DNA from: Bacteroidales bacterium
GTDB lineage: Bacteria; Bacteroidota; Bacteroidia; Bacteroidales; WCHB1-69
Assembly (NCBI GenBank): GCA_031253655.1
Contig: JAIRVY010000066.1
Location: forward strand, 1 to 55,485
Direction of reading: 5' to 3'
DNA length: 55,485 nt
Shown here: positions 9,923 through 55,193 of the stretch, piece after piece
Layout of the letters: every line of letters begins with the position of its first letter
Numbering within the stretch: the first letter of the stretch is position 1
Notes under the pieces: model-generated
Databases searched by the model: none
Seen by the model: the letters and a program-made list of their open reading frames with translations, nothing else
Told to the model about the DNA's origin: nothing
Position numbers and translations under genes: made by a program

Positions 9923-9980
9923 AAAAAAAATTGTTAAAAATTTGGTAAATTTAAAATTAGAAACTGCCATATTTCTGCCG

Positions 9981-29200: not shown

Positions 29201-32200
29201 ATAAGTGGTGGAACAGTACCTTACACAGTACATGTGGCTGAGGCAAATTCACCATTTACTTTCACAAACATTTATAATACTGCTGGAAGTTATAATTTGC
29301 CCAACCTCCCGCTTGGAAATTATTCTGTAAAAATTACAGATGCCTTAGGTTGTGAACTCAATTATAGCAATATCGTGGTGAAAGAAAAACTGAACTATAT
29401 TATTGCGGTGGATGATTACATTACTACATTTCTAAATAAAGAAGTTTCTGCCAATGTATTAGACAACGATTTTGAGTATCTGTTGCGTAGCGGAAAATTG
29501 GAAGTGATTGCCAATACATCGGCTAAATACGGAACTATCGGCACCATTGTGCCCGATGGTTCATATACCTATATGCCCAATTATAACTATGCCGGTTACG
29601 ACACAGTGATGTACACCGTTCGTCATAAAGAGTGCGGTTATTCAACATTTGCTTATCTCTATATCAAAATTATTGAGGAAGCGGTTACTCCCAGACCTCC
29701 TGTAGCTGTTCCCGACCTCTATACAACCATTAAAGATGTTCCAATTTCCGGTATGTGTGTAATGGACAACGACATTGATGTAGACGGCGGAGAACTGTTC
29801 TTTAATAGCGTTTTATCCGGAGTTTCTAACGGAACACTAACAGGACCAGATGTTAACGGATGTTTCACTTATACCCCGAATCCGGGTTATGTAGGAGATG
29901 ATTATTTCTATTACAAAATATGTAGTGATAACGGAAAATGCGATTCTGCTTGGGTAACAATCATTGTGTTGCCCACTCCTGAACTGTGCTTCGTGGGTGC
30001 ATTTCCAGATTATTATGCAACAGGACAGGATGTAAAACTTGAAGTTGCTGAATCATACGGAATATTTAAAAACGATATCTACCCATCTACTCCCGTAATA
30101 CGTATCCTAACGCAACCCCTCGGCGCTGTTTCATTAGTAGGATTACTCGGCGCTTTTGAATATATGCCTGAATCAGGGTTTGTAGGAACTGATAAATTCC
30201 GGTATGAGATATGTGTTGGAGGTTGCGGATGCGATACCACTTGGGTTTACATAGTGGTAGTTGCCAACGACTGTCCACACATAATGCCTCCACGCGTAAC
30301 CTCTCCACAAACTTTCTGTGAACCGGCAACCATTGCCGACCTGCAAGCAGATGGAGTGATTATTAAGTGGTTTGAATATCCCGATACAGGTGAACCATTA
30401 GGACCAACAGTTCCATTAGAGAACGGAAAAATTTATTATGCCTCTCAAACCGATAACGGCGATTGTGAAAGTGAACTTCGCTCGCCCGTTAAAGTTATTA
30501 TTAATAACTCGTTAGTATTAGGCGCTCCCGATATTGACAACCAGCAATTCTGCGAAGGCGCCGAACTGCATGACCTCATTACTCTTAATCCGAATGTGGT
30601 TTGGTATCAGTTCCCAGAAGGGGATCCGGAACTCCCGGGCGATACTAAATTGGAAGATGGTAAAACCTATTATGCTGCTTTGCGAGCAGGAGGATGTGAA
30701 AGTGCCATCAGAAAACCGGTTACAGTTACTGAGACTATTCAAATTACAGTTCTACCAAAAATCCCGGCGCAAACCTTCTGTTTGGGAGCTATGGTAAGTG
30801 ATATTGTTACCGGCGTATATGCCAACATTGCCTGGTATTATACCCAAACCAATGGAACCCCGCTTTCGCCTGATACTAAACTCTCAACCAGAACCTATTG
30901 GGCTGAAATTCAAGTGGGAGATTGTGAAAATACAACGAGAATTGCAGTACCCATTACCATATCTGTATTTAATGTGCCGATTGTGGAAGGAACTATTAAC
31001 TTTTGCTATGGTATGACCCTTGCCGATATTCCGATTACCGGTGCAGGTGTTATCTGGTACAATGCAGCTAATAATGAATTGCCTTTGAATACGATAATTA
31101 CAGACGGCAGCACTTACTACGCTGTACAATCTAACGGAGAATGCGAAAGCGCCAAGGTTACGGTTACAACTTACCAAAATATTGTACTTCCGCCTACGGT
31201 TACCTCTCCGCAAGATTTCTGTATTACCGATAATGCTACCATTGCAGACCTAAAACCGCAAAGGCCAAATATTACTTGGTATGCTGACGAAACAGATATC
31301 GTTCCGCTTGAATCTACTCATTTATTAGAACATAACTCAATCTATTGGGCTACTCAGCGCAACGAATTCTGTGAAAGCATTACACGTTCCGCAGTAAAAG
31401 TGTATATTGTTGATGAAACCAAACTGTTGCCGCCCGATATAAAGGATACAGTTGTGATGTGTGGGGTTGGTAGCCAATACTTATCACAAGTGCCTACCAA
31501 TGGATATATTGTGAAGTGGTATGATGTGAATGGCAATCTATTGCCAAACAATACTTTACTTGTAGATGGAACTACCTATTATGCTGCTAGAGTTACAGGT
31601 TTGTGCGAAACAACCCAACGTACTCCGGTTACAATTAATTATCAACCTTCTGTAGATTTAGATATTGCCGACCAATCTTTCTGTGTTGGAGCTACTATTG
31701 CCGATATTATTGTCCCTCAGGGATTTATAATTACATGGCAGGATAATTTTGCTCCCACCAATTTACTTCCTACTACTGTTCTTGAAACAGGTGTTTATTA
31801 TGCACAAACTGAAATAGGTAATTGTAATGCAAGAAAAACAGTTAATATTACTATTGGTACTCCTACCGTACCGGTGGTTGAAACTGTTCAATATTTCTGC
31901 GCCACTACATCCAATCCGCTTACCCTTAGCGATATTAAGGTTACCGGCTCCGGTATTAAATGGTACACAGCGCCGGTTAATGGTACACTATTACCGATGG
32001 ACAAGCAATTAGAACATGGAAAAACCTATTACGCTGCGCAAACCAACAACGGCTGTATCGGAGATATGGCTGAGGTTACGGTGTGGTTATACAAGAATGT
32101 GAATCCGCCAACGATAACCTCTCCACAAACTTTCTGCGTTCAAGATTTAGAAGATGTTCAATTAACAGTAAATAATATTACTGTTTTAGGTATTGGTATT

Positions 32201-35200
32201 ATATGGTATGATGCAGAGTTTGACGGAAATATTATTCCGGATACTGAATCCTTAGAAGACGGCAAAACTTACTGGGCATCACAAACGCTAGGCGTGTGTG
32301 AAAGCGAAGGACGTACACCGGTGAAGATTAATCTGGTAGAGAATCTATTTATCCCAGCGCCATACATTCCTACCCCACAAAGAAGATGCACCGGAGGTAC
32401 TGTTGCCGACCTGTTCACCAACGGATATCAAGTAAAATGGTACACTTCTGCAACAGGCAATGAACTGTGGGATGACAACGAATTGTTGGCAGGAGGAGCA
32501 ACTACCTATTATGCAGCTTTAGTAGTGGGAGAATGTGAAAGCAGTGAAAGAACTCCGGTTAGGGTTACCACAGGCACAGATTTTGTAGTACCGAAAATTG
32601 TCCCGCAATCTTTCTGCGAAGGAGCAATTCTTGCACAAGTGATAGTGCCCAATGACCAGATAAAATGGTATGCAGATGCTACCGGCGACACGCCGCTTTC
32701 GGACATTACACTCTTGGAAAGCAAAACTTACTATGCTGCACAAACTCAGGGCGGCTGCGAAAATACAGTACGAGTACCGGTGGTAATTACGATAAATAAA
32801 CCGAATGAACCGATTGTGATTGAAGAACAAAGTTTCTGCGACACGGCTACAATAGCCGATTTGGTAGTAACAGGACACGGTATTCATTGGTATGCTACGG
32901 CTCTTAGTACCGAACCGCTACCCCTTACTACCGAGTTGGTTGATAATACAACCTATTGGGCAGCAAGTAGCGCAGGAAATAACTGCGAAGGTTTAAGGGT
33001 TGGAGTGCTAGCTCACGTATATAACCTGCTACCACCGCCAACTGTTACATCTCCACTCTTGCTTTGTACGGACGGAACCGGAGTGCTCAGAGTTTCTGAT
33101 TTACAAGCAGATGGATATAACATACAATGGTATTACACCCAAACCGGTGGAACTCCACTGGCGCCGAATACTCCGTTGCACCCCGACTCGCTCTACTGGG
33201 CATCACAAAAATTAGCCCATTGCGAAAGCGAACGCTCTTATGTGAGATATTCACTAATCAGTGAAAGTGAAATACCTCCACCCGATATCCCAACAGCAAT
33301 ATCGTTCTGTTACGACTTGCGTTATCCAAGCAATAATCTGTTTGTTAGCGATTTGCCTACTTACGGGCTCAATATTAAATGGTATATGGACGCAGATGCA
33401 CTCTTTGAAGTATTCCCTGAAGATAGGCTTAACTATACAACTTACTATGCAAGGCTGATTATTGGAGAGTGCCAAAGTACAACTCTTACAAGAGTAGATA
33501 TTACTTTCCCACCGGTTATTATTACCCAGCCCATTATTGAAGCACCGCAGTACTTCTGCGAAGGCGCAATGCTTAGCAATATTGTGGGACACGATAATGT
33601 AAATTGGTATGCTACCAACGACTTATCTCAACCTTTATCTCTGCAGCATATTATGGAAACCGGCATCTATTACGCAAGAGTAGTTATAGGCGCTTCCGGT
33701 ACCTGTATCAGCGATGTGCCTAAGGCTGTTCAAATCTATATTAACACACCGAATCCAAATTATGTAAAAGATACCATACAGTTCTGTGGTTTTGCCACAT
33801 TATTAGAACTTGCTGTGAGCGGTTATGGTATTACATGGTATGATACCGAAGCATTGGATGAAGAACCGCTACCGCTGAATACGGAATTACTTCACGGTAC
33901 TACTTATTATGCAGCAAGCACCAACGGCGAGTGTGCCATTATTAGCAAATCAGTGTTGGTGAACATTTACGACCAAATTATTCCGCCCACCGTTACTACA
34001 CCTGTAGAATTGTGTGTGATTGGCGACACATATACTTTTGCCTATATTGATAATATGCAAGGTGAAAACTTTACCTGGTACAGAAGCGAATTTGGTAGTG
34101 ATAAAATTGCTCTAAGCGCTCCTTTGGAAGAGGGAATCTTCTGGGTATCTCAAAAAGTAGGAGAGTGCGAAAGTGCGCGTTCTTATGTGAAGGTGGTATT
34201 TCTAGATGAAAAGATTTTGAATGCGCCAAAGGTTCTTACTCCACAAGAGTTCTGTATCACAAATCCTAATCCATACACCTTTGCAGACATTCTTTTGGAA
34301 AGAGGTGTGCACGTAGTTTGGTATGATGCTCCTGTTGAGGGCAACACCATTGAACCTTGGGAAGAATTAGTTGCTGGAACCTATTATGCTGCTTTAGTTG
34401 CCGGAGACTGCGAAAGCGAACAACGCACCGCAGTGGAGATTTCTTTCAAAAATGAAATTGAAATATTACCCAACTTCGTTGATGAACAATCTTTCTGTGA
34501 AGGAGCGATGATAAGCACTATTGTGGCACCGCCTTATGTGGTATGGTTTGCAGATGAAACAGACGATACCCCATTGTTGCCTACGATGAAATTGCAAACC
34601 GGTTATTACTGGGGAGCCATTTCCGTTAGTGACGATTGCACTAGCACGACTCGTAAGAGACTATGGGTAGAAATTACCGATGAAGTTCAGCAGATTGTTC
34701 CACTTAGAGAAGCATTCTGTTATGATGTTACACTTGCCGACCTATCACTCACCGGATACGGTATTAAGTGGTATTCTGAAGAAACATTAGAAAATGAAGT
34801 GTCGATAACCAAACCATTGAAGCACGGCGATACTTATTATGCTGCAAATACAAACGGCGAATGTGCCATAATTATTTATGCCGTAACGGCAGAAATTTAC
34901 GACAATATTATTCCACCCACCGTGAAAACTCCATACCAGTTGTGTGGCGTAAAAGGCGATTATACCTTAGAAGATATTTTAGTATCAGGGTATGAGATTC
35001 AGTGGTATAGAAGCGAGTTTGGAGACGACAAACTTGGCTTTAATCATATTATTGATAACGACTCAATATATTGGGTGGCTCAAAAAGTGAGCAAGTGCTG
35101 GAGTAAACGCTCTTATGTAAAGGTTATACTTCATCCTGATGTTCTTATTCCGGCGCCTAATGTTCCACAAAAAATTCAGTTTTGCGAGAACATGCCACCA

Positions 35201-38200
35201 ACGAGACTGCGCAATGTTATCGTATCAGGGTATAATTTAGTTTGGTACGACAATGATTCACAGGAATTCCCCTTAGATCCAGATGAAACAATTCTTGCTG
35301 CCAAAACATACTATGTTGGCCAAGTTGTGGGCAGTTGTCAAAGTACCGAACTTTCCAAATTAGAAATAGAATTTGTTCCTGAAATTAATTATATGCCGGT
35401 AATACCGCCACAGGCCTTCTGCGAGGGTGCTTTAATTGGCTCTATTGAAACACTTTCCGATGTTTATTGGTATGAGTCGGCAACCTCAAATATTATTTTA
35501 TGGCCTACCGAAAAACTAGAAACTAAGAGTTACTGGGCAGAACTGATTGTTCCATTTACCCCCGGTTGTACAAATTCAACCCGCACGGAAGTATCTATTT
35601 CCATTCAAACTACTGAAATAGCACGCAAATTTGCAACTCAAACTTTCTGTTTTGAACCGGAAATTCACCATTTGAGCGTATCGGGATATGGCATTAAATG
35701 GTATTCAGATGCTGCTTTAACAATACCGATAGGTTTATACACAAAACTAGAGCACGATTCTACATATTATGCGGCTAACACCAACGGTACTTGTGCTATA
35801 AGTATTAACGAAATTACGGTAAAAATTCATGAGGATTTGTTGCCGCCAAGAGTTACTACTCCATACGTACTGTGCGGTGAAGACAAAACGTTGACTTTTG
35901 CAGATATATATGTTCAAGGCGATAATATTCAATGGTATGAAACTGAATTTGGAGATGACCCCATTGCAATGGATGAACATCCCGAAAGTGAAAAAATCTA
36001 CTGGGTATCACAGACTGTGGGCATTTGTGAAAGCGAACGTTCTTATGTGAAAGTGATTTACGATCCAGAAATGATTGTTTCTGCCCCGAAAGTACCATCC
36101 CCACAACAGTTCTGTCTCGACAAAATCTACTACTTGAGCGATGTTTCCCTTCCTGACGGTGTCAACATAATATGGTATGCCGATGCAACTACTACCACCC
36201 CAATTGATAATCCTTCTACGGTGATATTGGCAAATGGAGCAACTTATTATGCTGCACAACAGGTGGGCAACTGTCAAATTTCGGCGCGTACCTCCGTGGA
36301 GATTATTTTAACTTCTGTAATCAATACCGCTCCGGTAATTGTTTCGCCGCAAGTATTCTGCTATGGCGCTATGATTTCTAACATTCAGGTGCCTTCTAAC
36401 AACATTATTTGGTATGCCCCTGATGGAAGCGGCCCATTAGATGAAATTGAAATATTAGAAACCGGTATCTATCAAGCAACTATTGCTGTAAGCGGAATCT
36501 GTATTAGTACAACAAGAGTACCGGTATCCATTATGATTGACCCACAAAATCACGTTTGGGCAAAAGATACTCAAGAATTCTGCAACGCTTCTACTATTGC
36601 CCATTTAAGAGCAAACGGTTACGGAATTACATGGTATTCCGATCAATCGTTAGACGTACAGTACAAAATGGAATTAGATGACCAGATTGAACACTTGAAA
36701 ACGTACTATGCTGCTAACACCAATGGTAGCTGTGCATTGATTGGACTTGAAGTTAGGGTTGAATTATTTGAACAAGTGCCTCCTCCAACAGTTAAAACAC
36801 CTGTAGAGTGGTGCGTGAGAGATATTGAAAATCACACATTCACATTAGACGATTTAGCGCCTTATGTTAATGGATATGGTATTAAGTGGTATAAGAATAA
36901 TTCTACTTTGGATGAGTTATTACTCACGCACGGCTTAGAAAACGACTCTATCTACTGGGTATCTCAAACGTTGGCAATCTGCGAGAGTGAACGTTCCTAT
37001 ATCAAAGTAAAACTCGTTGAAGATATGTTTGTTCCGAAACCTGACATTGACCCCATTGAAATTTGCGACGACTTGAAGGGGATTCTTGTAAAAGATTTAC
37101 CCATAGATTTACCCAATATTAAGTGGTATTATTCCCCTTCCGGAACTAATAATCAAGCACATTCTGACAATCCAATCAATGCTAATACTATTCTGTATGC
37201 TGAGCAAATTATTGGCGATTGTCAAAGTACGGAACGTACAGCTGTGTCGATTAGCTTTGTTCCCAAAATCAGTACGCTTCCGGATATTAAAACACCGCAG
37301 TATTACTGTGAAGGAGCGATTATGGCTACTGTAGATGCCCCTGACTATGTAGTGTGGTATGAAAATGAAAACGATGATATTCCAATAGACCGTTTCCATT
37401 TCATTTTACATACGGGAAAATATTGGGCCGCAGTTTACTTGGGTGAAGATTGTGAAAGCACTGAGCGTTTGCCTGTTGATATATTTATTGACGATGGAGA
37501 TGGTCGTAAAACTTTAACACAGTGGTTCTGCTACGATGCCGAAATTGCTGATATTAAGGTAACAGGATATGGATTGCAATGGTATGATACCGAAGATTTC
37601 GAAAATGCTGAGCCGCTGCCTTTAGTCCATAAGTTAGAAAATGGAAAAACCTACTACGCTACCAATCACAATGGCAATTGTGAACTGATGGCGTATGAAA
37701 TGACGGTAAGAGTATATCCCGAACTCCTTCCGCCCGTGGTTACAACCCCTGTTGAGTTATGTATAATTGATGATGAACATACTTTAACTCTTGCCGATTT
37801 AGAACTCTATGTTTCCGGCAGTGACTTGGTATGGTATGCAAGCGAAACGTCAACAACCCCACTCACCCCGGCTTCTCCGCTATGGAAATTAGATAACAAC
37901 GTTACGTACTGGGTAGCACAAAGTTATGGTATCTGCGAAGGCGCTCGTTCATCAATAGTAGTGAAACTTAGCAACTTCATAAATATTCCGGCACCAATTA
38001 TCGATTCATTCGAAATTTGTGATGACGGAGGCGACTACTATTTAAGCGATATTCCAACACCTGTTGGAGTAAATATTATTTGGTATGATGCCGCAGTTGA
38101 CGGAAACATCATTCCCGATCCTTCTTCGGTGAAGCTATATGATGACGACCAATACTGGGCTGCCCAAGATATAGGAGCGTGTCAAGGAACAGAAACTACA

Positions 38201-41200: not shown

Positions 41201-44200
41201 GCAAATCATATCTTAGAAAATGAAAAACGCTATTATGCAGCACTCCATATTTATGGAAATTGTATAAGCACAGTAAGAAAAGAGATACTTGTTTACATCA
41301 ATCCTACAGATTATAAATATCCAGAAATTGACCAAATGTTCTGCGATGAAGAGCGGTTTGTGAGCGACTTGGTTGCTACCGGATACGGATTAGAATGGTA
41401 TCTTGTTCCTAATAATTTTGGAACAGCATCACTTGCTTTAGATGTGAAATTGATACACGGAACTACCTATTACGGTGCCAACACAAATGGAAACTGTGCA
41501 TTTACTACTGTGGCAGTGAATGTATCAATTTATAATGGTGTACCTCCGCCAACGATTGCTTCTCCACAAGAATTCTGTATTCTATCGAATAACCACAGTT
41601 TAACATTGGAAGATATTCAGGTAGTTGCGGGCGACAACGTGAAGTGGTACACTTCAATAGATGCTACAGCTCCTCTTGCACCAAATACTATTTTAGAAAA
41701 CAACACACTCTATTGGGCTTCTCAAACTATTGGAACAAGTTGCGAAAGCGAGCGTACTTATGTAAAAATAATCCTCATTCTAAACAAGGTGATTCAACCT
41801 CCGGTAATTGATGATATTTATCTCTGTGAAGATATAAAAGGCGAAATTTCTGTAGGTGATTTACCCACAAACGGAATGAATATCAACTGGTATTATTCTC
41901 AATCTACGGACAATCCGGCATTACCGGACGACAAGATAGATGATGATATTACTCTATATGCTGCGTTAGTGGAAGGCGAGTGTCAAAGCGCAGGTTTAAC
42001 CAAAGTTGAAGTAATTTTTGAAACTACAATTTCTACGAAACCTGAAATTAGAGATACACTTTACTTCTGCGAAGGCGCGATGATTAGCACTATAATTGTT
42101 GACCACAACTTTATTAAGTTGTTCGCAACCGAAACTTCCACTACACCGCTACCGCTGAATACTATATTGGTTAATGATAGGGTGTACTGGGCTGCGTTTG
42201 TGGTTGGTGAAGATTGTATCAGTACTGAAAGAGTACCTGTAAGAATCATTATTGAACCCACAGGCCACTACTACGATGACCTCGTAGAAAACTTCTGCGC
42301 CGGAACTACAATTAGCGACATACATGTAACCGGATATGGCGTAAGGTGGTATCTTGATGCAGATTTGACCAGACCGGTGACAGATGATTACGGACTTTAC
42401 AAGTTAGAACACGATTCTACCTATTATGCTGCCAATACGCATGGCGAGTGTTCTATCATTATCTATGCTGTTAAAGTAACTATTTTCAGCGAAGTACAAC
42501 CACCAACAGTGAAAACACCTACGGAATTGTGCGTAGATGATTTAGAAGCGCCCCACGGACTCACTTTAGCCGATATTTGGGTACAAGGCAACAATATTCA
42601 GTGGTATGCTTCCGAAGAAGGAAATGATGCACTTGACTTAAATGAACCGTTAGTGGATGGTGAAATATATTGGGTAACTCAAACAATTATTGCCTGCGAA
42701 AGCAAACGTTCTTATGTAAAAATAAAATTGTTCGAAAGTACCGATATACCCGCTCCGGAAATCCCAACTGAACAAGAGTTCTGCGATGGTGGTATTTATA
42801 CTATTGCTAACCTGACCGTTCCAACAGGAATGAGAATTGAATGGCGTGATGAAAGTGGTGTTATCTATGCAGACAACACCCCACTTGTTGATGGAGAAAC
42901 TTATTATGCCTACCAAATTGTGGGAGAATGTGAAAGCACAGAACCTACATCGGTTACAGTTACCTTTGTGCCGACAATTACCAATACACTAAATATTGAC
43001 ACCGTACAGGTATTCTGCAAAGGCGCAATGATAAGCAGTATAGTAGTGCCATCGAACAATATTGTTTGGTATGCTGACCAAACCGGTGGATTACCATTGC
43101 CCGATAATACGATTTTGATTGACGGAAAAAAATACTACGCCGAGCTAAAAGTGGGTGGTAGCTGCGTAAGCAACGAAAGAAAAGCAGTTACCATCAAGAT
43201 TAACCCTGAAGATTACCAGTGGTTAGAAGAGATTCAATCCTTCTGCTGGGATGCCTTAGTGGGAGACCTCACAGTGATGGGATGGGGCGTGAAATGGTAT
43301 GAAGATGAAGAATTAACGGTAGGTCCATTAGAATTAACTATCAAGTTGGCACACGATAAAGTATATTATGCAGGAAATACCAACGGCGATTGTAAAATTA
43401 TTGCCGCTGCTGTTACTGCGAAAATATTTACAAATATTATGCCACCAACAGTTCAAACTCCGGTTGAATTGTGTACTACCGGAGGATACCTGTATTCATC
43501 CGATTTAATGTACAACGTGAACGGTATAAACCTCAAATGGTATAAAGATGCATACGGCACTATTCCGTTGGGCAACGACCATTTAGAAGACGGTGAAACC
43601 TACTGGGTATCTCAAACCTACGGCAATAATTGCGAAAGCGGTTTATCTCCAATTATGGTTATCATTAAAGAAAATGTAAATTATCCTGCTCCCGACATTT
43701 CAAGCCCGCAGTATTTCTGCGAAGATGGAGAATATACCTTAGAGGAGATGACCGTGCCGTCGGGTATGAATATTATTTGGTACGATGCTTTTGACAACAT
43801 CTTGCCAGAGACTACAATCTTAGAAGATGGTCAAACTTACTATGCAAGTAGAATTGTGGGCTCTTGCGAAAGCACGCAACGCACTGCTGTGAAAGTAGAA
43901 TTCCAACCTGTAATTGATGTTACACCTCATTTTGATGTGGATGAACTCTTCTTCTGCTACGGCGCTATGATTAGCGATATTGTAACTCCGGTAAATAACG
44001 TGGTGTGGTACTATAATCAGTTTGATAAAGTACCATTGGCAGGCGATCACCTGCTTGAAACACACAAATACTGGGCGACAATCCTTATAGGCGAAGATTG
44101 CGAAAGCACAAGTCGTGTTCCTATGGATATAGTAATTGATCCGGTTGATGATAGCTATCCAACATACGAACAAGAGTTCTGCTCCGGTGCAACTGTTAGC

Positions 44201-47200
44201 CACATCAGTGTTCAAGCGTATGGCGTTCAGTGGTATTTAGACAAAGACCTCATTATTCCTGTACCATTAACCAATGATTTGATTCACAATGCTACCTATT
44301 ATGCAGTGAATGTTAACGGTGACTGTGAAATAATCGGCGTAGCAGTCAAGGTTTATGTATATGATAATGTACTCCCCCCAACTACCCCAACAGTAATTGA
44401 ATTGTGTGTAAATGACATAGAAAACCATACGCTAACTTTGACAAGTTTGCTTAATTATGTTCACGGTACAAATATCAAATGGTATGATTCTGAGGAAGGT
44501 GGCAATGAGTTGCCGTTGAATACTCCTGTTAAAGATGGAACTATTTACTGGCTATCTCAAACATACGGAGCAGAATGTGAAAGTTTTGAACGTTCCTACA
44601 TCAAAGTTCTTCTAAATGAAAATATGAATATTCCTAAACCGGAAATTATCTCCCCAATTGAACTTTGTGCTACATTAAAATATAGTATCAAATTAAGCGA
44701 CTTGCCTGTAAATGGACAGGAATTGCTATGGTTTTTAGATGCTGCCGGAGATATCCCGTTGCTGCCATCGATGATATTAACCAACGACAATAACACATTC
44801 TATGCCAAATTGAAAGTAGGAACGTGCCAAAGCACAGAACTTACTCAAGTGTTAATCAACTTTGTACCGGTAAGTCATTACAAACCGATTGTAGTTACTC
44901 CGCAAAGTTTCTGCCACGGAGCAATGTTGAGCGATATTGTGCTAAAAGATAATGTGATTTGGTATGCTACCCAAACTTCCACAACACCGTTGCCAAGCAA
45001 CACACTGTTAAGTTCGGATACTTATTGGGCAGCCTTACATCTCGGAGGTACTTGCATAAGTACGGAAAGAGTGCCGGTAATAATCAAAATTAATCCTACT
45101 GATTTAACTGTTGATATCAGAGAACAACAGTTCTGCCTCGACGCACTTGTAAGCGACCTTATTACTTCCGGCTATGCCGTTAAATGGTATAAAGAAGTTG
45201 ATTTAATAAATGAAGTGGGTTTGGATGTAAAGTTGAAACACGATTCGGTTTACTATGCTGCCAGCACGAATGGTGAAGATTGCAAACTATTGGTAGATGC
45301 AATCAGAGCAAAGATTTACGACCACGTGCCTCCTCCAACAGTAGAAACACCTTACGAATTGTGCGAACAACAAGGCAATTTAACATTAGCTGATATTAAA
45401 GTACAAGGACAAAATATTAAGTGGTATGATGCCGAAGTGGATGGAAATCTACTACCAATAAATACCTTAGTTGAAGATGGAAAAATCTACTGGGTATCGC
45501 AAACCGTAGGCGTAGGCTGCGAAGGTGGTCGAACGTATGTGAAAGTGAAAATCACAAATATCAACAATGTTCCTGCTCCGGAATTGGAGGATATTGAACT
45601 ATGTGAAAACTTGAAAGGAATCACATTAGGTGAGGTACCTGTGAACGGACTCAATATCGTATGGTATGAAAATGTCGCCGGTACGATTCCGCTATTGGCA
45701 AGCAAAGTAATTAGCACTGACGTTACCTACTATGCGGCATTGAAAGTAGGGGAGTGTGAAAGTACCGAACTTGTTCCTGTGAACATCACTTTTGAGAGTG
45801 AAATTACCAAAACACCTCAAATTGATGACCAAATCTTCTGCTATGGCGCAATGATAAGTGATATTATAGCCCCAACCAACGTGGCGTGGTATTTAGATGA
45901 ATTTGTCGGAGCAAAATTGGAAAGCCACACTATCTTAGAATCTACTACTTATTGGGTTGCTTACGCTTATAGCGCTAATTGCGAAAACAATAATCGCGTT
46001 CCTGTAGAAATTACTGTTGGCATATCCAATGATAATTATTTGTATGAAGAACAAGAGTTCTGCTATGGAGCAGTGGTGGGTGATATAAAAGTGCACGGGT
46101 GGGGTATCAAGTGGTACACCAACCCCGAATTAACAGGCAACCCGTTAGCATTAACCGACCTGTTAATCCACAAAAATACTTACTATGCTGTAAATTCAAA
46201 TGGTGATTGTCAACTGATTCTTGCTGAAATTAAAGTATTTGTATATGAAGACGTGTTACCACCAACAGTTACCAGTCCCTACGAGTTATGCTCATTGGGC
46301 GGCGAACTAACACTGGGACACATCTATGTGCAAGGAACCAATATTCAGTGGTATGCAAGCCAATTTGGAGAAGTTCCGTTGCCGCTCTCTACAGTTATTG
46401 CAGATGGAGTTACCTATTGGGTATCTCAAACTCAGGGCAAAGCCTGCGAAGGTGGACGTTCACCGGTAAAAGTGAAGATTATAGAAAATATGATTCTTCC
46501 CGCGCCGAATGTACCAAATCCACAGCAGTTCTGTAATAACAAAACCTATCACTTATCCGATATTACATTACCTTTGGGAATGGAAATAAAGTGGTATAAC
46601 GCTGCAGGTGCAGAACTGCCGCTGAGTACGGAGCTAACAAACAACACTATCTATTATGCGTCTCAAGTAAACGGCGAATGCGAAAGTGCAGAAAGAACGC
46701 CAGTGCTCATACAATTAGTAACTGTGGTTACCAATAATCCTGATGTAATATCACCGCAGAATTTCTGCAACGGCGCGTTAATAAGTGACATTAAGGTAGG
46801 CACAAACAACATTCTCTGGTACCTCGAACCATCAGGTGGACAACCACTTGACCAGGATACACAGTTAAAAACCGGCATCTATTATGCATCGCTTATAACT
46901 GCCGAAGAGTGCGCAAGCACAGCACGCAAATCTATTCATATCTATATTAACCCCGAAATCCAACTCTTCGATACTACTCATCAGGTGTTCTGCTACGGAG
47001 CTTATGTCAACGACCTGAAAGCAACCGGTTATAATGTGAACTGGTACACAGACAGGAATTTGACCGAAGAATCGAAAGTGAGTCTTGGTGACCTCATACA
47101 ACACGGAACCATTTACTATGCCGCCAGCACAAATGGCGATTGCAGAGTTATTGAAGTAGCCGTGAGGGTAAGCGTGTATGAACATGTTTCTCCGCCAAAT

Positions 47201-50200
47201 GTAAGCAGCCCGTATGAATTATGCTCGATGGGAGGTCAATTTATTCTGGCAGATATATTTGTACAAGGCGAAAATATCACATGGTACTTAACCGAAGACT
47301 CAGAAGAACCACTACCGCTCAACACACAAATTTTCGATGGAGACGTGTTCTGGGTATCTCAAATGTTTGCTACCTGCGAAGGAGGACGTTCTTATGTGAA
47401 AGTAATAATCAAAAATAACCTGATTATTCCTGCTCCCGAAGTAATAACTCTACAATATTTCTGCGAAACAGGTACATACCACATCCACGATCTGATTGTG
47501 CCAATCGGAAAGAACATTGTGTGGTATAACGAAACAGGAGACTTATTGTCTGCTGATACAGAATTAGCAGAAGGCGTAACTTATTACGCTGCCGAAAGGG
47601 TAGGAGAGTGCGAAAGCGCAGAACGTACCCCCGTTACCGTAACATTCGACGAACTTCTCAAGATTGTATTGACAATTCCCGACCAGGGATTCTGCGACGG
47701 CGCAGTAATTGGTGATATTATCGTTCCTTACGAAAACATCAAGTGGTATTACAACTTTGAAGATATTACTCCTTTGAGCAAAATTGAAAGATTGTTGTCC
47801 CATACTTTCTTTGCAGAAATAGATTGTGATGACAACTGTGCAGTTACAGAACGTGTTCCGGTGGTAATTACTATCGGACAACCGAGTGTGGTTGCTACTG
47901 ATGCCGAACAAAACTTCTGTGAAGGTCAGTTTCTTATTGAAGACCTGAAAGTATTTGGCTTCGGTGTTACCTGGTATCCAACACCAAATTCAAACGTACC
48001 GTTGGATATCAAGACGCAGTTAGTACACGGAAATACCTACTATGCCGTAAATAAAAACGGGAATTGCGAAAGCGAAGAGCGCGTTGCAGTAACGGTATTT
48101 ATTTACGAACATATTGCTCCGCCAACTGTAGAATCACCGTTGAAATACTGTGTATCTACTAATCCCGGACTAACAGTAGAAGACTTGAAAGTATTATCAG
48201 GTGTGAATATCAGGTGGTATGATCAGGAGTTTGAAGGCAACGAACTGCCTCTCAACCACAAATTGATTGACGGTGGTATCTATTGGGCATCTCAAACGAT
48301 GGCGTACTGTGAAGGTCCCCGCTCATTTGTGAAAGTTGAGTTTGATCCCGATATGGTAGTGCCCGCGCCAAATATTCCTTCTCCACAACTATTCTGCAAC
48401 TTGGGAGGAACAACCTTAGGCGACCTTGTGAATATGAATCAAGACCTGTTGTGGTATTTCAATGAAAACGACATCATCCCAATGTCGCCCTCAATACCTG
48501 TAATCAACGGGCACATTTACTATGTATCCCAAAAAGTAGGCGAGTGCGAAAGTACTGAGCGTACCCCCGTGTTAGCTATATTCAGCAACGTTATTAGCAT
48601 TACTGTTGAAATACCGCCACAGGCTTTCTGCTACGGCGCATTGTTGAGCGACATCGTTACTCCGTACCAAAACATTGTTTGGTACGAAACAATGACCTCT
48701 ACACAGCCATTGCCGATAAACACGCAGCTCAAAACCAAGATCTATTACGCTGCAATGAAAGTAGGCGAGTGCATCAGCACCATTAGAATACCTGTACCGG
48801 TTACAATCGGAATACCTTCCAACGTGATTACTGATGAATATCAAAACTTCTGTGGAAGCGCAATTATTGCCGACCTGTTTGCCATAGGATTTGGTGTGAA
48901 ATGGTACGAGTCTCTTGAGGCTACCGAACAATTGCCATTAGACCACCCGTTAGTTGACGGTGGTACGTACTGGGCAGTGCAAAGCAACGAAGATTGCGAA
49001 AGCAACCGCGTGGCAGTTCTTGTAACCATCTATTCTGTACCCGAACCACCCGAAATGTTGGATGATGTTGCGGCTGCTAAGTGCGAAGGTGAGACCATTA
49101 CAGTTGAGTATCTGCTCGGTTTGATTAATAATGAAGGATACGATTATGTAATCTATGTGGATGAGGCGTGCAAAATGAAACTCACATGGGATATTATTAC
49201 GGATCTATCGGTAGCATCTTCCCATACTTTCTATGTAATGGCTTACCATCAGGGAACTAACTGCTCGCACAGCGTAGAAGACGCCTTGAAGATAGTGGTA
49301 GTAGTGAATCCGCGTCCAGAACCACCGGTTATTATTACAGGTTCTCTGCTTAGCGTTTGCGATGGCGAAGTGATTACCCAAGAATGGTTAGAAACTTTCA
49401 TTTCTTATAACAATGCAGAAGTAATCGTTGAGTTCTATCTCGATCCGGCTTGCACGATTCCGTTTGCTAATATCACTACAAATTATGCCATTGCAACTTA
49501 TCATCAAATCTATGTAATTGCAAGAAACATAACTACCGGCTGCGCTACCAATGCAGAAGACGCATTAGTAATGACCGTGATTGTAAATCCACGTCCAAAT
49601 GCTCCTATTGAAATACCCTACGCAAACGCAAGCGTTTGCTCCGGCGAATGGATTACCGAAGCCAAACTATACAGCTTAATCTATTATGATCCTTTACAAG
49701 TTAATGTAGAGTTTTATTTGGATCCGGAGTGCACCATTCCTTTCGAACCAATCCTTACCGACTATGCCGAGGCAATATCGCACAAAGTGTATGTAATTGC
49801 CAGAAGTATGGCTACCGGCTGTGTTACCTTTGCAAAAGATGCCTTAGAATTGACCATCACTGTGAATCCGCTACCGGAAGCACCCGAAATTGAGGATAAT
49901 GCCATCCCTGCAGTTTGCGATGGCGATATCATTACGATAGGAACCTTGCTTACATTCATCAAATACAACCCCGCTTTAGTAACCGTAGAGTTTTATTTAG
50001 ATAAAAATCTGAATATTCCGTTTACTAATATCCAAACCAACTATGCTGTGGCTACCTACCACACTATCTATGTAGTTGCAAAAGACAAAATTACGGGCTG
50101 TGTAACCGCTACTGAAGATGCATTGGAATTGATAGTGCAGGTTGACCCGCTACCGGTAATGGAAATGCACAACCTCATCTATTGCGATGGAGAAGATGTG

Positions 50201-53579: not shown

Positions 53580-55193
53580 ATGAAAAAACACATTTTATTT
53601 TCGCTGTTAATCTTTTTTAGTATCCAATTAATTGCTCAGGAAAAAGGAGCCTACCTTACCATTTCGGGCGGAATGGGACCTTCAGGGATTACCTACAAAA
53701 TGACCGATGTTATTTTTGCTGACCCTAAGTGCCATCTCAAACTAGGCGGCCAAGCAGGATTTGGATTTAGCTACTATTTTACCAAATACCTTGGGCTTTC
53801 CCTCGGCGTAGACGTAGCACACTACCGAACACACGGAAAACTGATTGGAGAATTTATGAAGGGGAGGGGAGACGCATTTTATCTAGGTAGTTATACAGAT
53901 AACGACTATCCCTTTGGAACTCCGGAGACCGGATACATTAGGGAGTACGACCTGTTGGTAAGAACACGAAATTGGGTGGAGTGCCAATCGGTGCACCTCT
54001 TGGAAATTCCACTTATTGTCAATTTACAGAAGAAATTTGGAAAAAGCGAAGGTTTTGGACTCTATTTGGGACTTGGTGCAAAATTCCAACTCCCTATCCA
54101 ATCGAAATACTCGATACTTGATGGCAATAGTAAGGAGGATAAAAGATTGATGGTCTCAGGATATTATGCCGAAGGCAATTTGGAACTGCCTTATTTCAAA
54201 CCGGACGGAGAAATAAGTCCGGACATATCCACACACGGGTATGGCACAATCCACAATCCAAGCGAAAGGCTAACATTAGTAAACGACGGAAAATTAGATC
54301 TCAAATTTAATGTGTCATTAGTTGGCGAGGCAGGTATCATAGTCTCATTAAGCCGTAGAGTTGACCTCACCTTAGGCGGCTTTATTGACTATGGTTTGTT
54401 AAATATGAGAAATAATAATGAAAACCAAGCCCTCTTTACAGGGCCTGAAACCGACTATGTTTCCGGTGCAGAAAGAAATAATGTAGGAAAAGGAATTACT
54501 TATGGTTCTATTACGCAAAGTGAATATGTGAATAGAGTGAGCTCTATTTCCTATGGAGGCAAGGTAGGAGTGAGGATTAAACTCGGAAAACTTTCACAAA
54601 AACAACAGCAAGAAAGACAACGCGACACCGTTTATCTCGGTGGACAAGAATTCCCGATAGACTCTCTCTTGAAAGCGATTGAAGATTTGAAACAAAATCA
54701 ACCGCAACCCCTACCGTTACCAGTTGATTTTGACTCCATTTTGAAACCATACATAGATGCGTTAGATGACGCTATTAAGAAGATTCCCGCTTACTTACCG
54801 GATGAACACCTTGACTACTATCCTAATGTGTACCCCGATGAAGAAATGAGATTTTTGTTCGAACCCATCTATTTCGACCTCGATAAATCATTCTTGAAAA
54901 GTGAAGCCATTGAGATATTGAATAGGAAAGTTCAAATATTGAATAATTACAAGGATATTAGATTGATTATTTTCGGAAATACTTGCGATTTAGGAAACGA
55001 CCCGTACAACTTTAAATTGGGACTAAGAAGAGCAGAAGCAGCAAGAGATTATCTTGTAAATAATGGTATAGATGAAGGTAGAATACAAATAAGTACACTC
55101 TCAAGGTTCGAGCCTGAAAGACCTAACGTGGATGAATTTAACCGCACACATAACAGAAGAGACGACTTTAAACCCATATTTCCACGAAAATAG
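53580..55193 (+). CDS. OmpA-family outer-membrane protein: N-terminal beta-barrel-like domain, Q/P-rich linker, C-terminal OmpA/peptidoglycan-binding domain
   Basis: 537 aa. Signal peptide 'MKKHILFSLLIFFSIQLIAQE'. Alternating-hydrophobic beta-strand region ('LKLGGQAGFGFSYYFTKYLGLSLGVDVAHY', 'GLYLGLGAKFQLPI'). Linker 'QKQQQERQRD...QNQPQPLPLP'. OmpA-like C-terminus 'IYFDLDKSFLKSEAIEILN...IRLIIFGNTCDLGNDPYNFKLGLRRAEAARDYLVNNGIDEGRI'. Confidence 0.85.
   Translation: MKKHILFSLLIFFSIQLIAQEKGAYLTISGGMGPSGITYKMTDVIFADPKCHLKLGGQAGFGFSYYFTKYLGLSLGVDVAHYRTHGKLIGEFMKGRGDAFYLGSYTDNDYPFGTPETGYIREYDLLVRTRNWVECQSVHLLEIPLIVNLQKKFGKSEGFGLYLGLGAKFQLPIQSKYSILDGNSKEDKRLMVSGYYAEGNLELPYFKPDGEISPDISTHGYGTIHNPSERLTLVNDGKLDLKFNVSLVGEAGIIVSLSRRVDLTLGGFIDYGLLNMRNNNENQALFTGPETDYVSGAERNNVGKGITYGSITQSEYVNRVSSISYGGKVGVRIKLGKLSQKQQQERQRDTVYLGGQEFPIDSLLKAIEDLKQNQPQPLPLPVDFDSILKPYIDALDDAIKKIPAYLPDEHLDYYPNVYPDEEMRFLFEPIYFDLDKSFLKSEAIEILNRKVQILNNYKDIRLIIFGNTCDLGNDPYNFKLGLRRAEAARDYLVNNGIDEGRIQISTLSRFEPERPNVDEFNRTHNRRDDFKPIFPRK

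What the first reader, a model, noticed from the sequence alone, without database searches (positions are those of the whole stretch)
30287..49039. An 18.8-kb array of 80 two-cysteine ~78-aa modules is organised as 20 super-repeats of four fixed subtypes
Reading the translation, I count 80 back-to-back units (6,251 aa). Each fits this pattern: P-x-(I/V)-x(2-4)-Q-x-F-C, then (T/M)(I/V)-x-D-(L/I), then (I/V)-x-W-Y, then (T)-Y-Y-A or Y-W-A, then C-E-S-x-x-R-x-x-V-x-(V/I).

The units are not interchangeable. They cycle strictly through four subtypes:
- a: 'PPTV.SP.ELC..IYWVSQT.G.CES.RSYVKV';
- b: 'PQ.FC..YL.D...P.G.NI.WY..TYYAA..GECES.ERT.V';
- c: 'PQ.FCEGAMIS.I..P.N.I.WY..YWAA...C.ST.R.PV.I.I';
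- d: 'Q.FC..TIADL.VTGYGI.WY..LEH..TYYAANTNG.C....V.V.IY..PP'.

The true period is therefore ~313 aa, or ~938 nt (18,753 nt / 20).

Two invariant Cys per unit suggest one disulfide staple per module. The general layout resembles the Ig-like modules of Cytophaga/Flavobacterium adhesins, but I cannot assign this unit to a named family.

A conserved four-domain super-repeat kept over 20 cycles implies selection on a higher-order structure, such as a four-module helical or zig-zag repeat or a periodic binding register. That resembles titin-type super-repeats and is unusual for bacterial adhesins, which mostly amplify a single unit.
Basis: seen in the sequence. Interest (0 to 1): 0.88.

Follow-up and report, generated by a model that had tools for sequence, protein, structure and literature searches.

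The report
Four-type Ig-domain super-repeat stalk
An 18.8-kb stretch of one 14,106-residue secreted surface protein of an uncultured Bacteroidales bacterium is built from 80 Ig-like domains that cycle strictly through four conserved subtypes, a titin-like layout that recurs in a small family of related giant proteins but that I found described in no paper.

Summary
Nt 30287-49045 lie in frame inside one ORF (11174-53494, 14,106 aa) and encode 80 two-cysteine ~78-aa units. Identity is 0.36-0.39 at unit lags 4, 8, 12, 16 and 20, against about 0.25 at other lags (z=39). The mean period is 312.8 aa.

The unit does belong to a named family, Pfam Ig_7 (PF19081). The protein is type IX secretion (T9SS) cargo: it has a signal peptide, a type A C-terminal sorting domain, SprB and tandem-95 repeats, and a conserved OmpA-type gene downstream.

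The a-b-c-d cycle is not private to this gene:
- Two more cycles lie upstream (aa 3845-4452).
- Related Bacteroidales proteins and nine metagenome loci carry the same cycle with 3 to at least 16 copies.
- 530 of 532 adjacent domain pairs follow the cyclic order.
- Relatives show recent four-domain block duplications, up to 95% identity at lag 4.

My reading is a rigid stalk that grows by tandem duplication of a four-domain block, with each subtype kept by purifying selection. Selection for a higher-order four-domain structure is possible (AlphaFold pTM 0.84 and 0.72) but is not shown. The cysteine pairing could not be tested.

Verdict: a new variant of a known kind, of moderate interest.

The parts
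11174..53494 (+). Single giant ORF (14,106 aa plus stop) encoding the whole protein
   Evidence: It is colinear with the ortholog P0004+P0003: head 31% identical, middle 40%, C-terminus 48%.
11174..11272 (+). Predicted Sec signal peptide (aa 1-33), with cleavage ...VEA|Q leaving an N-terminal Gln
   Evidence: Read from the sequence (hydrophobic core AAIFTLFLAIGFSILPV, then VEA-Q). The ortholog has ...INA|Q. This fits the Bacteroidetes Q-rule named in the title of PMC5837995. No signal-peptide predictor was run.
11273..14293 (+). N-terminal ~1,000-aa head of unknown family (candidate adhesive or distal module)
   Evidence: No Pfam, NCBIfam or PDB sequence match. It is 31% identical to the N-terminus of P0004, the least conserved part of the protein.
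17771..21763 (+). SprB-repeat region organised in ~340-350-aa super-repeats (aa ~2200-3530). A second copy lies at aa ~5400-6070.
   Evidence: Pfam SprB PF13573, 77.7 and 69.2 bits. Self-matches at offsets 334-351 and 678-686. Lag peaks at 340.
22706..24529 (+). Two additional a-b-c-d super-repeats (aa 3845-4452) upstream of the main array
   Evidence: Subtype-HMM classification gives bBCD ABCD. They are colinear with P0004 3754-4352. The first unit is a weak 'b' call sitting in an 'a' position.
29396..30286 (+). Tandem-95 / Big_9 / cadherin-like units directly before the main array (approximate bounds). A paralogous block lies at aa ~3530-3844.
   Evidence: Pfam Big_9 160 bits, Cadherin_5, Cadherin_4. 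NCBIfam tand_rpt_95 132 bits. Self-match 3608-3873 to 6153-6400.
30287..49045 (+). Main array: 80 Ig_7 domains forming 20 a-b-c-d super-repeats (aa 6372-12624)
49046..50158 (+). Four ~93-aa units with three (the last with two) conserved Cys, directly after the array (approximate bounds)
   Evidence: Cys spacing ~30. Lag peaks at 93 and 186. Sequence seen. Conserved in P0003, P0006 and P0025.
50159..53254 (+). C-terminal PKD_5-like domains with ~192-aa (two-type) periodicity, plus further beta domains
   Evidence: Pfam PKD_5 50.9 bits. Lag peaks at 192. 36-49% identical to family members over the main alignments.
53255..53491 (+). T9SS type A C-terminal sorting domain
   Evidence: TIGR04183, 43.4 bits against a cut-off of 23. 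Pfam Por_Secre_tail, 31.6 bits against 27.
53580..55193 (+). Conserved downstream gene: 537-aa outer-membrane beta-barrel plus OmpA-like peptidoglycan-binding protein (candidate anchor)
   Evidence: Pfam OmpA 48.3 bits, with a weak OMP_b-brl_2 hit. Weak PorE and CHU_0125 hits below cut-off. 47% identical to the gene in the same position in L081. An OmpA gene sits in the same position in L082.

Best explanation
**What it is.**
- The region is the main stalk of a ~1.5-MDa cell-surface fibrillar protein of an uncultured Bacteroidales bacterium.
- The stalk is made of Pfam Ig_7 domains. These are of four anciently diverged subtypes (a, b, c, d) that always occur in the order a-b-c-d.

**How it arises.**
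- The array grows and shrinks by tandem duplication or deletion of whole four-domain blocks, through unequal exchange between same-subtype domains.
- This mechanism automatically keeps order and phase.
- Expansion happens mainly in the interior of the array, while the end cycles stay orthologous between species.

**How it is maintained.**
- Each subtype is held by purifying selection on its own set of residues and on very constant inter-domain spacing.
- Neighbouring domains stay only ~25-28% identical.
- Inferred: such dissimilarity lowers inter-domain misfolding and DNA slippage.
- Inferred: the short conserved junctions make a stiff rod. At about 4 nm per domain the 80-domain rod would be roughly 300 nm long. 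It would hold the poorly conserved N-terminal head away from the cell.
- Inferred: the downstream OmpA-type barrel protein is a plausible anchor.

**Status of each step.**
- Shown: domain family, secretion signals, periodicity, family-wide conservation of the order, block duplications in relatives.
- Inferred: rod function, length, anchoring, and the selective benefit of unlike neighbours.
For: **Identity of the protein.**
- Ig_7 scores 486 and 468 bits on the two halves of the array.
- The type A sorting domain passes its cut-offs.
- SprB, Big_9, cadherin and tandem-95 repeats are present.
- A signal peptide is visible in the sequence.
- The OmpA-barrel neighbour is conserved in three loci.

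**Periodicity.**

**The same four subtypes and order elsewhere.**
- Subtype HMMs built from the window classify other proteins as follows:
  - P0003: BCD(ABCD)x8
  - P0004: ...ABCDaBCDABCDABCDA
  - P0006: (ABCD)x5
  - P0025: D(ABCD)x3
  - P0036: (ABCD)x3
  - P0082: DABCDABCD
- Nine metagenome loci carry (ABCD)x5 to x16.
- 530 of 532 adjacent pairs are in cyclic order.
- Complete arrays start with A and end with D.
- 207 of 209 best hits in a different protein are of the same subtype.

**Block duplication.**
- Lag-4 identity reaches 0.95 in P0003, 0.88 in P0082 and 0.77 in P0006, while lags 1-3 stay at 0.26-0.35.
- Identity matrices of the subtypes across the 20 positions correlate: a-b r=0.39 (p=5e-4), a-d r=0.26 (p=0.004), b-c r=0.23 (p=0.014).

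**Conserved ends, expanding middle.** The two upstream cycles, cycles 1-4 and the last 1.5 cycles are colinear with the ortholog. Cycles 5-18 are not.

**Age and constraint.**
- DNA identity between cycles is 0.41-0.57.
- At identical residues the same codon is used 0.444 of the time, against 0.392 expected.
- Subtype-specific conserved columns number a 7, b 1, c 3 and d 5.
- C2-to-next-C1 spacing is 27-29 residues, with ranges of 6 or less.

**Rigidity.** AF2 gives pTM 0.84 for four domains and 0.72 for eight, with no confidence dip at the d-to-a junction.

**Precedents.**
- GhpA has a stem of 52 Ig-like repeats, a T9SS sorting domain and PorP/PorE-type neighbours.
- The argument that unlike modules reduce misfolding and slippage is made for A. 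baumannii Bap (PMC4647330).
Against: - There are no expression, localisation or structural data for this protein. All functional steps are inferred.
- The ortholog in the 492,815-bp (~0.49-Mb) MAG contig carries an in-frame TAA inside the array. At least one family member may therefore be a pseudogene, or the stop may be a sequencing error.
- The Mantel correlations are weak, and not significant for b-d and c-d. Co-duplication of all four domains in the window's own array is therefore only partly visible after saturation.
- High AF2 pTM came from a shallow alignment of paralogous repeats (20 and 10 rows) and could be over-confident.
- No coordinates were available to check whether the model is a rod at all. 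Fold-search TM-scores over the four domains are only 0.16-0.24.
- No PorP/SprF-type gene is present in the window.
- The benefit of unlike neighbours is a general argument and was not tested here.
Confidence: 0.62

Rival explanations
1. The four-domain period is selected because it encodes a higher-order structural register. One possibility is that one turn of a helically twisted rod equals four domains. Another is a lateral stagger in a multi-stranded filament, like the seven-stranded GhpA stem. In this reading only whole four-domain steps are tolerated, and the protein acts as a length-defined, periodic scaffold.
For: - The a-b-c-d order and the A-start/D-end phase are strict over about 560 domains in many proteins.
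- Each subtype has its own conserved residues, including junction residues such as '..IY..PPTV.(S/T)P' at the d-to-a junction.
- Inter-domain spacing is very constant.
- AF2 pTM is 0.84 for four domains and 0.72 for eight, which suggests fixed inter-domain geometry.
- The only solved relative, GhpA, is a rigid heptameric bundle of Ig-like strands held by inter-domain disulfides and hydrogen bonds.
Against: - Order and phase are preserved by block duplication alone. Relatives show such duplications at up to 95% identity.
- Copy number varies freely (3, 5, 9, 10, 13, at least 16, 20), so no fixed length is kept.
- No multimer prediction or model geometry could be examined.
- GhpA matches only weakly, about 45 bits per four domains, and it does not show the four subtypes.
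- Other Ig_7 arrays have block periods of 2, 3, 5 or 6. This fits accidental block sizes better than a special four-fold geometry.
Confidence: 0.18
2. The pattern is a neutral historical accident. An ancestral stretch of four already diverged Ig_7 domains happened to be the unit of a tandem amplification. Subtype identity persists only through shared ancestry and generic Ig-fold constraint, with no subtype-specific selection.
For: - Recent block duplications occur in relatives.
- Other Ig_7 proteins carry block repeats of other sizes, for example P0080 with 98% identity at lag 3.
- The pairwise identities among the 20 cycles look star-like, at 25-45%.
Against: - Synonymous sites are nearly saturated, and same-subtype identity is only about 0.36-0.40.
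- Even so, 16 columns stay conserved in one subtype only.
- Subtype HMMs from this gene classify domains of proteins only 31-48% identical overall with median margins of 23-47 bits in most family members.
- 207 of 209 cross-protein best hits keep the subtype.
Confidence: 0.12
3. The four subtypes are four different binding modules, so that the array presents a periodic multivalent binding register for a repetitive ligand such as a polysaccharide, host glycan or another filament.
For: - Subtype-specific residues exist.
- Fibrillar-adhesin stalk domains can also bind ligands (general knowledge; PMC8286594 discusses the blurred boundary between stalk and adhesive domains).
Against: - No binding-site-like feature or known binding family was found in the units. 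Only Ig_7 was detected.
- Many subtype-specific residues lie at the domain ends and junctions or in the core motif.
- The N-terminal head is the least conserved part (31% against about 50-60% for positionally orthologous stalk domains). That is the pattern expected if the head, not the stalk, carries specificity.
Confidence: 0.06

Closest known systems
GhpA grappling-hook protein of Aureispira sp. CCB-QB1 (PDB 9flp and related entries; bioRxiv 10.1101/2024.01.29.577165)
   Same: - It is the only solved structure with sequence similarity to the array (299 bits, 14 stretches), and GhpA fragments include the top fold matches.
- It is also a giant T9SS substrate, 5,898 aa.
[quoted passage not shown]
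- It has outer-membrane/OmpA-type genes downstream.
   Different: - Similarity is weak, about 45 bits per four domains, and the four subtypes are not recognisable.
- The N-terminal head is unrelated by sequence.
- GhpA is followed by both PorP and PorE homologues. Here only one barrel-plus-OmpA gene is seen.
- Heptamer formation is unknown here.
- The stalk here is 1.5 times longer in domain count, and the organism is a Bacteroidales bacterium whose relatives are gut-derived (gut, rumen and faecal MAGs), not a marine predator.
SprB gliding-motility adhesin of Flavobacterium johnsoniae, and SprB-like giant T9SS proteins
   Same: - It is a giant repetitive T9SS-secreted surface filament.
- SprB repeats (PF13573) are present in the N-terminal half of this protein.
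- The comparison between GhpA and SprB is drawn.
   Different: - The sorting domain here is type A (TIGR04183), not the type B domain that I recall, from general knowledge, for SprB.
- No sprC/sprD/sprF-type neighbours were seen.
- Bacteroidales of gut origin are not known gliders (general knowledge).
- I know of no description of a four-subtype Ig_7 cycle in SprB (not tested).
Titin A-band super-repeats (7- and 11-domain Ig/Fn3 patterns)
   Same: Unlike domains in a fixed order are repeated in tandem. Domains at equivalent positions of different super-repeats are more alike than neighbours are (general knowledge; PMC10665226 listed).
   Different: - There is no homology.
- Titin mixes two folds, and its period matches a known partner lattice, the thick filament. 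No periodic partner is known here.
- The copy number of the bacterial array varies widely between relatives.
Acinetobacter baumannii Bap and other multi-type module adhesins (also SasG/Aap G5-E and Ebh/Embp FIVAR-GA, from general knowledge)
   Same: These are bacterial giant surface proteins whose stalk contains several distinct Ig-like module types rather than one amplified unit. The same rationale has been proposed for them: unlike neighbours reduce slippage and misfolding (PMC4647330).
   Different: - The domain families and the secretion route differ.
- The Bap module arrangement varies between strains.
- Here one fixed four-type cycle is kept over 560 domains in many proteins.
Homogeneous Ig_7 arrays (for example P0009, P0013, P0015) and MpIBP-type adhesins with ~120 identical repeats (PMC4083281)
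   Same: The Ig_7 arrays share the same domain family and the same class of T9SS or CHU_C surface protein. Both kinds have long tandem arrays that serve as extenders.
   Different: In those arrays neighbours are near-identical: the median neighbour identity is 0.60 in 102 arrays. Here neighbours are ~0.28 identical, and only every fourth domain is related.

Membership tests
Pfam Ig_7 (PF19081, Ig-like domain CHU_C associated) | Match to the family HMM above the gathering score | tested here: met
   486.4 and 468.4 bits against a cut-off of 27.3 for the two halves of the array. No other family is detected there. Only 25 of the 80 units pass E<=0.01 on their own, so many units are divergent members.
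Pfam Ig_7 (PF19081) | Ig-like beta-sandwich fold | tested here: met
   The AF2 model is all-beta with pLDDT 91.5. The best Foldseek matches are GhpA Ig-like fragments and multi-Ig receptors.
T9SS cargo with type A C-terminal domain | C-terminal sorting domain (TIGR04183 / PF18962) at the extreme C-terminus | tested here: met
   43.4 bits against 23 and 31.6 bits against 27, at aa 14028-14105 of 14,106.
T9SS cargo with type A C-terminal domain | N-terminal Sec signal peptide | tested here: inconclusive
   A typical n-h-c region and a VEA|Q site are visible in the sequence and conserved in the ortholog. No predictor was available.
T9SS cargo with type A C-terminal domain | T9SS machinery genes (porK/L/M/N, sov, porU/V) in the same genome | not testable with these tools
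   Only a 55-kb window is available. A second T9SS cargo (M6 protease with a sorting domain, 5660-10273) lies next door, which makes a T9SS likely.
Fibrillar adhesin (sense of PMC8286594) | Repeated stalk domains plus a cell-anchor domain | tested here: met
   88 Ig_7 domains plus SprB, Big_9 and PKD_5 repeats. Por_Secre_tail is listed as an anchor domain in that study.
Fibrillar adhesin (sense of PMC8286594) | A recognised adhesive domain | tested here: not met
   The ~1,000-aa N-terminal head has no Pfam, NCBIfam or PDB match. An adhesive role is inferred from position only.
GhpA-type grappling hook | Stem of Ig-like repeats homologous to GhpA | tested here: met
   hmmsearch of the super-repeat profile against PDB sequences: 9flp_A, E=2.4e-88, 14 stretches. 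The similarity is weak per domain.
GhpA-type grappling hook | N-terminal hook module homologous to GhpA residues 26-1402 | tested here: not met
   phmmer of aa 1-1100 against all PDB chain sequences, which include full-length GhpA, found nothing relevant.
GhpA-type grappling hook | Heptameric parallel assembly with a hollow lumen | not testable with these tools
   No multimer prediction or imaging was possible.
GhpA-type grappling hook | Downstream PorP-like and PorE-like genes | tested here: inconclusive
   One conserved barrel-plus-OmpA gene lies downstream. Its PorE hit is 41.5 bits against a cut-off of 600. No PorP/SprF family hit was found.
SprB gliding adhesin | SprB repeats (PF13573) | tested here: met
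   77.7 and 69.2 bits against a cut-off of 28, in aa ~2200-3530 and 5400-6070.
SprB gliding adhesin | Type B sorting domain with a cognate SprF/PorP partner and sprC/sprD neighbours (general knowledge) | tested here: not met
   The sorting domain is type A. Neighbours are an M6 protease, murA, kdsC, valS and an OmpA-type gene.
Titin-type super-repeat (architectural class, not a homologous family) | Fixed-order pattern of unlike domains repeated in tandem, with position-equivalent domains more alike than neighbours | tested here: met
Titin-type super-repeat (architectural class) | Period matched to a periodic binding partner or lattice | not testable with these tools
   No partner is known. Variable copy number argues against a ruler of fixed length.

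The most novel reading that the evidence does not exclude
The a-b-c-d cycle may be a true structural register, not just a duplication unit. Four unlike Ig_7 domains, stapled by inter-domain disulfides as in GhpA, would form one repeat of a helically twisted or multi-stranded filament. Only whole four-domain steps would then be compatible with assembly. That would make this a bacterial, extracellular counterpart of titin-type super-repeats, with a defined axial period of roughly 15 nm.
Probability: 0.15. Interest if true: 0.75.

Novelty: new variant of a known kind. Interest (0 to 1): 0.46.

Why it matters
- **A natural experiment in repeat-protein evolution.** Long bacterial surface fibres are mostly described as one domain amplified many times. 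Here a family of giant T9SS proteins uses a fixed four-subtype cycle, kept over hundreds of domains and across proteins that are only 31-48% identical overall. The unit of duplication (four domains), the conserved ends and the expanding middle can all be read directly from sequence.
- **A testable structural question.** The system allows a test of whether unlike neighbours are kept to avoid misfolding and recombination, or because four domains form a structural unit.
- **Relevance to solved relatives.** Structures of T9SS giants have just begun to appear (GhpA). A rigid, disulfide-containing ~300-nm stalk with a defined period would be of interest for understanding how such fibres are exported and anchored, and as a modular nanoscale spacer.
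- **A practical point for annotation.** The copies are so diverged at DNA level that the gene assembles reliably. Current annotation, however, only names these proteins 'T9SS type A sorting domain-containing' or 'tandem-95 repeat' proteins.

Tried and rejected
1. **Tandem Repeats Finder on the window** found nothing. The repeats are too diverged at DNA level, so the protein was analysed instead.
2. **The word-indexed protein search** with the super-repeat profile at E<=1e-10 gave only two weak single-domain hits. That wrongly suggested there were no relatives. The exhaustive representative search found the family.
The best hit is 72% identical, among uncultured Bacteroidales from gut, rumen and faeces. 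None of the 80 loci holds a relative of the giant gene or of the other neighbours, so there is no synteny information.
4. **An alignment of overlapping pairs of super-repeats (A2)** came out staggered at 1,020 columns. It was discarded in favour of ten non-overlapping pairs (A3).
5. **Model shape could not be judged from Foldseek.** RMSDs were 44 Å to extended GhpA fragments and 18 Å to horseshoe Ig1-4 receptors, with TM-scores of only 0.16-0.24. I rejected any conclusion from these numbers, because they may reflect superposition of a single domain.
6. **Model coordinates are not exposed**, so the Cys-Cys distance test could not be done.
7. **A literature search for 'PF19081/CHU_C/Ig_7'** matched unrelated words.
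A d-subtype alignment worked.
9. **An assembly artefact was considered and rejected.** There is no exact repeat of 24 nt or more.
10. **An enrichment of the Bacteroidetes O-glycosylation motif D(S/T)(A/I/L/V/M/T) was checked.** It is not enriched: 15 observed against about 23 expected.

Full report
**1.

The window contains one ORF of 14,106 codons, at 11174-53494 on the + strand. The reported stretch, nt 30287-49039, is in frame with it and covers aa 6372-12622.

Cysteines in this stretch follow a strict alternation of 44-58 and 25-31 residues. There are 161 Cys, that is 80 pairs plus one extra. Cutting ten residues before each first Cys gives 80 units of 72-87 aa.

In a MAFFT alignment of the units, mean identity is 0.39, 0.38, 0.36, 0.37 and 0.36 at unit lags 4, 8, 12, 16 and 20. 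It is 0.25-0.265 at all other lags. 77 of 80 nearest neighbours share the subtype, and average linkage isolates d and c completely and a and b nearly so. Against 5,000 shuffles of unit order the same-phase excess is z=39, and period 4 beats periods 2, 3, 5, 6 and 8.

- Protein: 309-318 aa and its multiples, with a weaker ~77-aa ridge.
- In-frame DNA: 930-954 nt at z 5-6, and 228 nt at z 3.5.

The mean super-repeat is 312.8 aa.

The DNA copies are only 41-57% identical, with no exact repeat of 24 nt or more. Tandem Repeats Finder finds nothing. The count of 20 is therefore not an assembly artefact.

**2. What the units and the protein are**

The unit is a member of Pfam Ig_7 (PF19081, 'Ig-like domain CHU_C associated'). 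The two halves of the array score 486 and 468 bits, and nothing else is detected there. Only 25 units pass on their own, so many are divergent members.

The rest of the protein shows the following features:
- A visible signal peptide ending VEA|Q.
- A ~1,000-aa head with no known family.
- SprB repeats, PKD_5, Big_9, cadherin-like and tandem-95 repeats.
- A type A T9SS sorting domain at the very end.

The neighbours are housekeeping genes (nuoN, valS, kdsC, murA), a second T9SS cargo (an M6 metalloprotease), and, directly downstream, a 537-aa barrel-plus-OmpA protein.

ValRS is at most 72% identical to any species-representative genome. The best hits are uncultured Bacteroidales from gut, rumen and faeces.

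**3. The cycle is a family trait, not a peculiarity of this gene**

An exhaustive HMMER search of 1.84 billion representative proteins with the four-domain profile found 12,320 proteins. Most are ordinary Ig_7 arrays.

I built one HMM per subtype from the window's own units and classified every domain of the 150 best proteins. Seven of them show the same cycle with large score margins:

| Protein | Classification |
|---|---|
| P0003 | BCD(ABCD)x8 |
| P0004 | ...ABCDaBCDABCDABCDA |
| P0006 | (ABCD)x5 |
| P0025 | D(ABCD)x3 |
| P0036 | (ABCD)x3 |
| P0082 | DABCDABCD |
| P0123 | aBCD...aBCD |

The window protein itself reads A - bBCD ABCD - (ABCD)x20. This reveals two more cycles at aa 3845-4452.

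The sources name these proteins 'T9SS type A sorting domain-containing protein' or 'tandem-95 repeat protein'. They come from Bacteroidales MAGs and from the OttesenSCG-928 genomes. By their name the latter probably belong to the cockroach-hindgut single-cell set of PMC10266427. I did not verify that link.

P0004 and P0003 are adjacent on one 492,815-bp contig. They are separated only by an in-frame TAA at '...CESER*YVKV'. Together they form one ~11.9k-aa ortholog that is colinear with the window protein: head 31% identical, middle 40%, C-terminus 48%.

A metagenome scan with the d-subtype motif YYAA[NS]TNG brought nine further loci. All carry strict ABCD arrays of 5 to at least 16 cycles.
- Over all members, 530 of 532 adjacent domain pairs follow the cyclic order. 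The two exceptions are weak calls.
- Complete arrays start with A and end with D.
- The best hit of a domain in a different protein has the same subtype in 207 of 209 cases.

**4. How the array evolves**

In relatives, lag-4 identity reaches 0.95 (P0003), 0.88 (P0082) and 0.77 (P0006), while lags 1-3 stay at 0.26-0.35. These are recent duplications of exactly four domains.

In the window the copies are old. Same-codon use at identical residues is 0.444 against 0.392 expected, and all pairs of cycles are 25-45% identical. Traces of joint history remain: the identity matrices of subtypes a/b, a/d, b/c and a/c across the 20 positions correlate (r=0.21-0.39, p=0.0005-0.045), whereas b/d and c/d do not.

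Against the ortholog, the two upstream cycles, cycles 1-4 and the last one and a half cycles are colinear at 42-63% identity. Cycles 5-18 have no positional counterpart. The ends are therefore old and the interior expands.

Block duplication and unequal exchange between like domains keep order and phase without any selection on order. Removing a single domain would need recombination between subtypes that share no DNA similarity.

**5. Evidence for constraint**

Sixteen alignment columns are conserved in one subtype only: a 7, b 1, c 3, d 5. Five more (C, W, Y, Y, C) are universal. Several of the subtype-specific columns sit at the domain ends. The d-to-a junction reads '..IY....PPTV.(S/T)P'.

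The spacing from the second Cys to the next first Cys is 28.9, 28.4, 26.9 and 27.1 residues for a, b, c and d, with ranges of 6 or less.

Positionally orthologous stalk domains are more conserved (about 50-60%) than the head (31%).

AlphaFold2, run with the 20 cycles as the alignment, gives an all-beta four-domain model with pLDDT 91.5 and pTM 0.84. With ten non-overlapping pairs of cycles, the eight-domain model has pLDDT 87.5 and pTM 0.72, with no confidence dip at the d-to-a junction. This suggests fixed junctions. However, the alignments are shallow and paralogous, and no coordinates were available.

**6. Comparison with known systems**

The only solved structure with sequence similarity is GhpA, the grappling-hook protein of Aureispira (E=2.4e-88 over 14 stretches). 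GhpA fragments also include the top fold matches.

According to its paper, GhpA has these features:
- It is a 5,898-aa T9SS substrate.
- The stem forms a rigid seven-stranded tube.
- It has disulfides between neighbouring Ig-like domains.
- It has downstream PorP- and PorE-like genes.

The window protein shares the general plan and a conserved OmpA-type downstream gene, which is 47% identical between loci. The similarity per domain is weak, the head is unrelated, and bundling cannot be tested.

SprB repeats are present, but the sorting domain is type A and the gene context is not SprB-like.

Among 118 Ig_7 arrays surveyed, 102 are homogeneous, with a median neighbour identity of 0.60. Sixteen have block periods of 2-6, including a second, apparently different period-4 type (P0124) and a 98%-identical three-domain block (P0080).

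Multi-type module arrays, and the argument that unlike neighbours reduce slippage and misfolding, are on record for A. baumannii Bap (PMC4647330). I found no paper that describes a four-subtype Ig_7 cycle.

**7. Verdict**

- Order alone is explained by the duplication mechanism.
- Subtype-specific conservation and the confident inter-domain predictions leave room for a structural register.
- The 'one disulfide per module' idea is untested. The GhpA precedent points to inter-domain bonds as a serious alternative.

I file the region as the stalk of a T9SS-secreted fibrillar surface protein. It is a new variant of a known kind, and its distinctive feature is a titin-like four-domain super-repeat.

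Noticed in passing
window 22706-24529 (aa 3845-4452): Two further a-b-c-d super-repeats lie upstream of the reported array. They are colinear with P0004 aa 3754-4352. The first unit is atypical: a weak 'b' call sitting in an 'a' position.
   Followed up: yes
window ~14771-22792 versus ~24461-30373 (aa ~1200-3873 vs ~4430-6400): The N-terminal half contains a large internal duplication, with offsets of ~3230 and ~2545 aa at 23-41% identity. Each copy runs: unknown region, SprB-repeat super-repeats, tandem-95 units, then an ABCD array. The first ABCD array has 2 cycles and the second has 20.
   Followed up: partly
window 17771-21763 and ~27371-29383 (aa ~2200-3530 and ~5400-6070): The SprB-repeat regions have their own ~340-350-aa super-repeat, about four ~85-aa units, at 27-35% identity between copies. 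Multi-domain block repeats are therefore a recurring theme in this protein.
   Followed up: partly
window ~49046-50158 and ~50159-53254: After the array come four ~93-aa units with three conserved Cys each (the last has two). An odd Cys number hints at inter-domain or free cysteines. Then come PKD_5-like domains with a two-type ~192-aa period.
   Followed up: no
window 53580-55193 (+); L081 12306-13976; L082 23092-24555: A barrel-plus-OmpA gene directly follows the giant gene in all three loci examined. The window and L081 copies are 47% identical. This resembles the PorE-like GhpC downstream of ghpA, but the PorE model scores far below its cut-off.
   Followed up: partly
window 5660-10273 (-): A divergently oriented 1,537-aa M6-family metalloprotease carries InlB-B-repeat-like and cadherin-like domains and its own T9SS sorting domain. 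It is a second T9SS cargo next to the giant gene.
   Followed up: no
window 10424-11008 (+): A 194-aa ORF between the protease and the giant gene has no Pfam or NCBIfam match. Whether it is a real gene is unknown.
   Followed up: no
L082 9970-9972: The ortholog on a 492,815-bp Bacteroidales MAG contig is split into two annotated proteins (MDR2083734.1 and MDR2083733.1). The cause is a single in-frame TAA at the position where the family has Ser ('CESERSYVKV'). It could be a sequencing error, a pseudogene, or a readthrough or recoding site.
   Followed up: partly
L089 (Ga0209628_10000329), ORFs at +0|1 and +1|4160; also L081 1-2883: In this locus an ORF ending in ABCDABCD lies directly upstream of the (ABCD)x5 gene (P0006/P0153). 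Some genomes therefore carry two family members in tandem.
   Followed up: no
proteins P0080, P0058, P0104, P0116, P0124, P0086: Other Ig_7 array proteins have block periods of three domains (P0080: 98% at lag 3 against 70% between neighbours). There is also a different-looking period-4 type (P0124: 0.60 against 0.32). Multi-domain duplication units have arisen several times in this domain family.
   Followed up: partly
window 30287-49045 compared with 11273-14293: Positionally orthologous stalk domains are more conserved between the window protein and its ortholog (about 50-60%) than the N-terminal head (31%). This fits a diversifying distal module on a constrained stalk.
   Followed up: partly
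method note: The word-indexed homology search returned only two weak hits for the four-domain profile. The exhaustive search found thousands, including near-orthologs scoring over 3,000 bits. A negative result from the indexed search should not be trusted for this kind of repetitive giant protein.
   Followed up: yes
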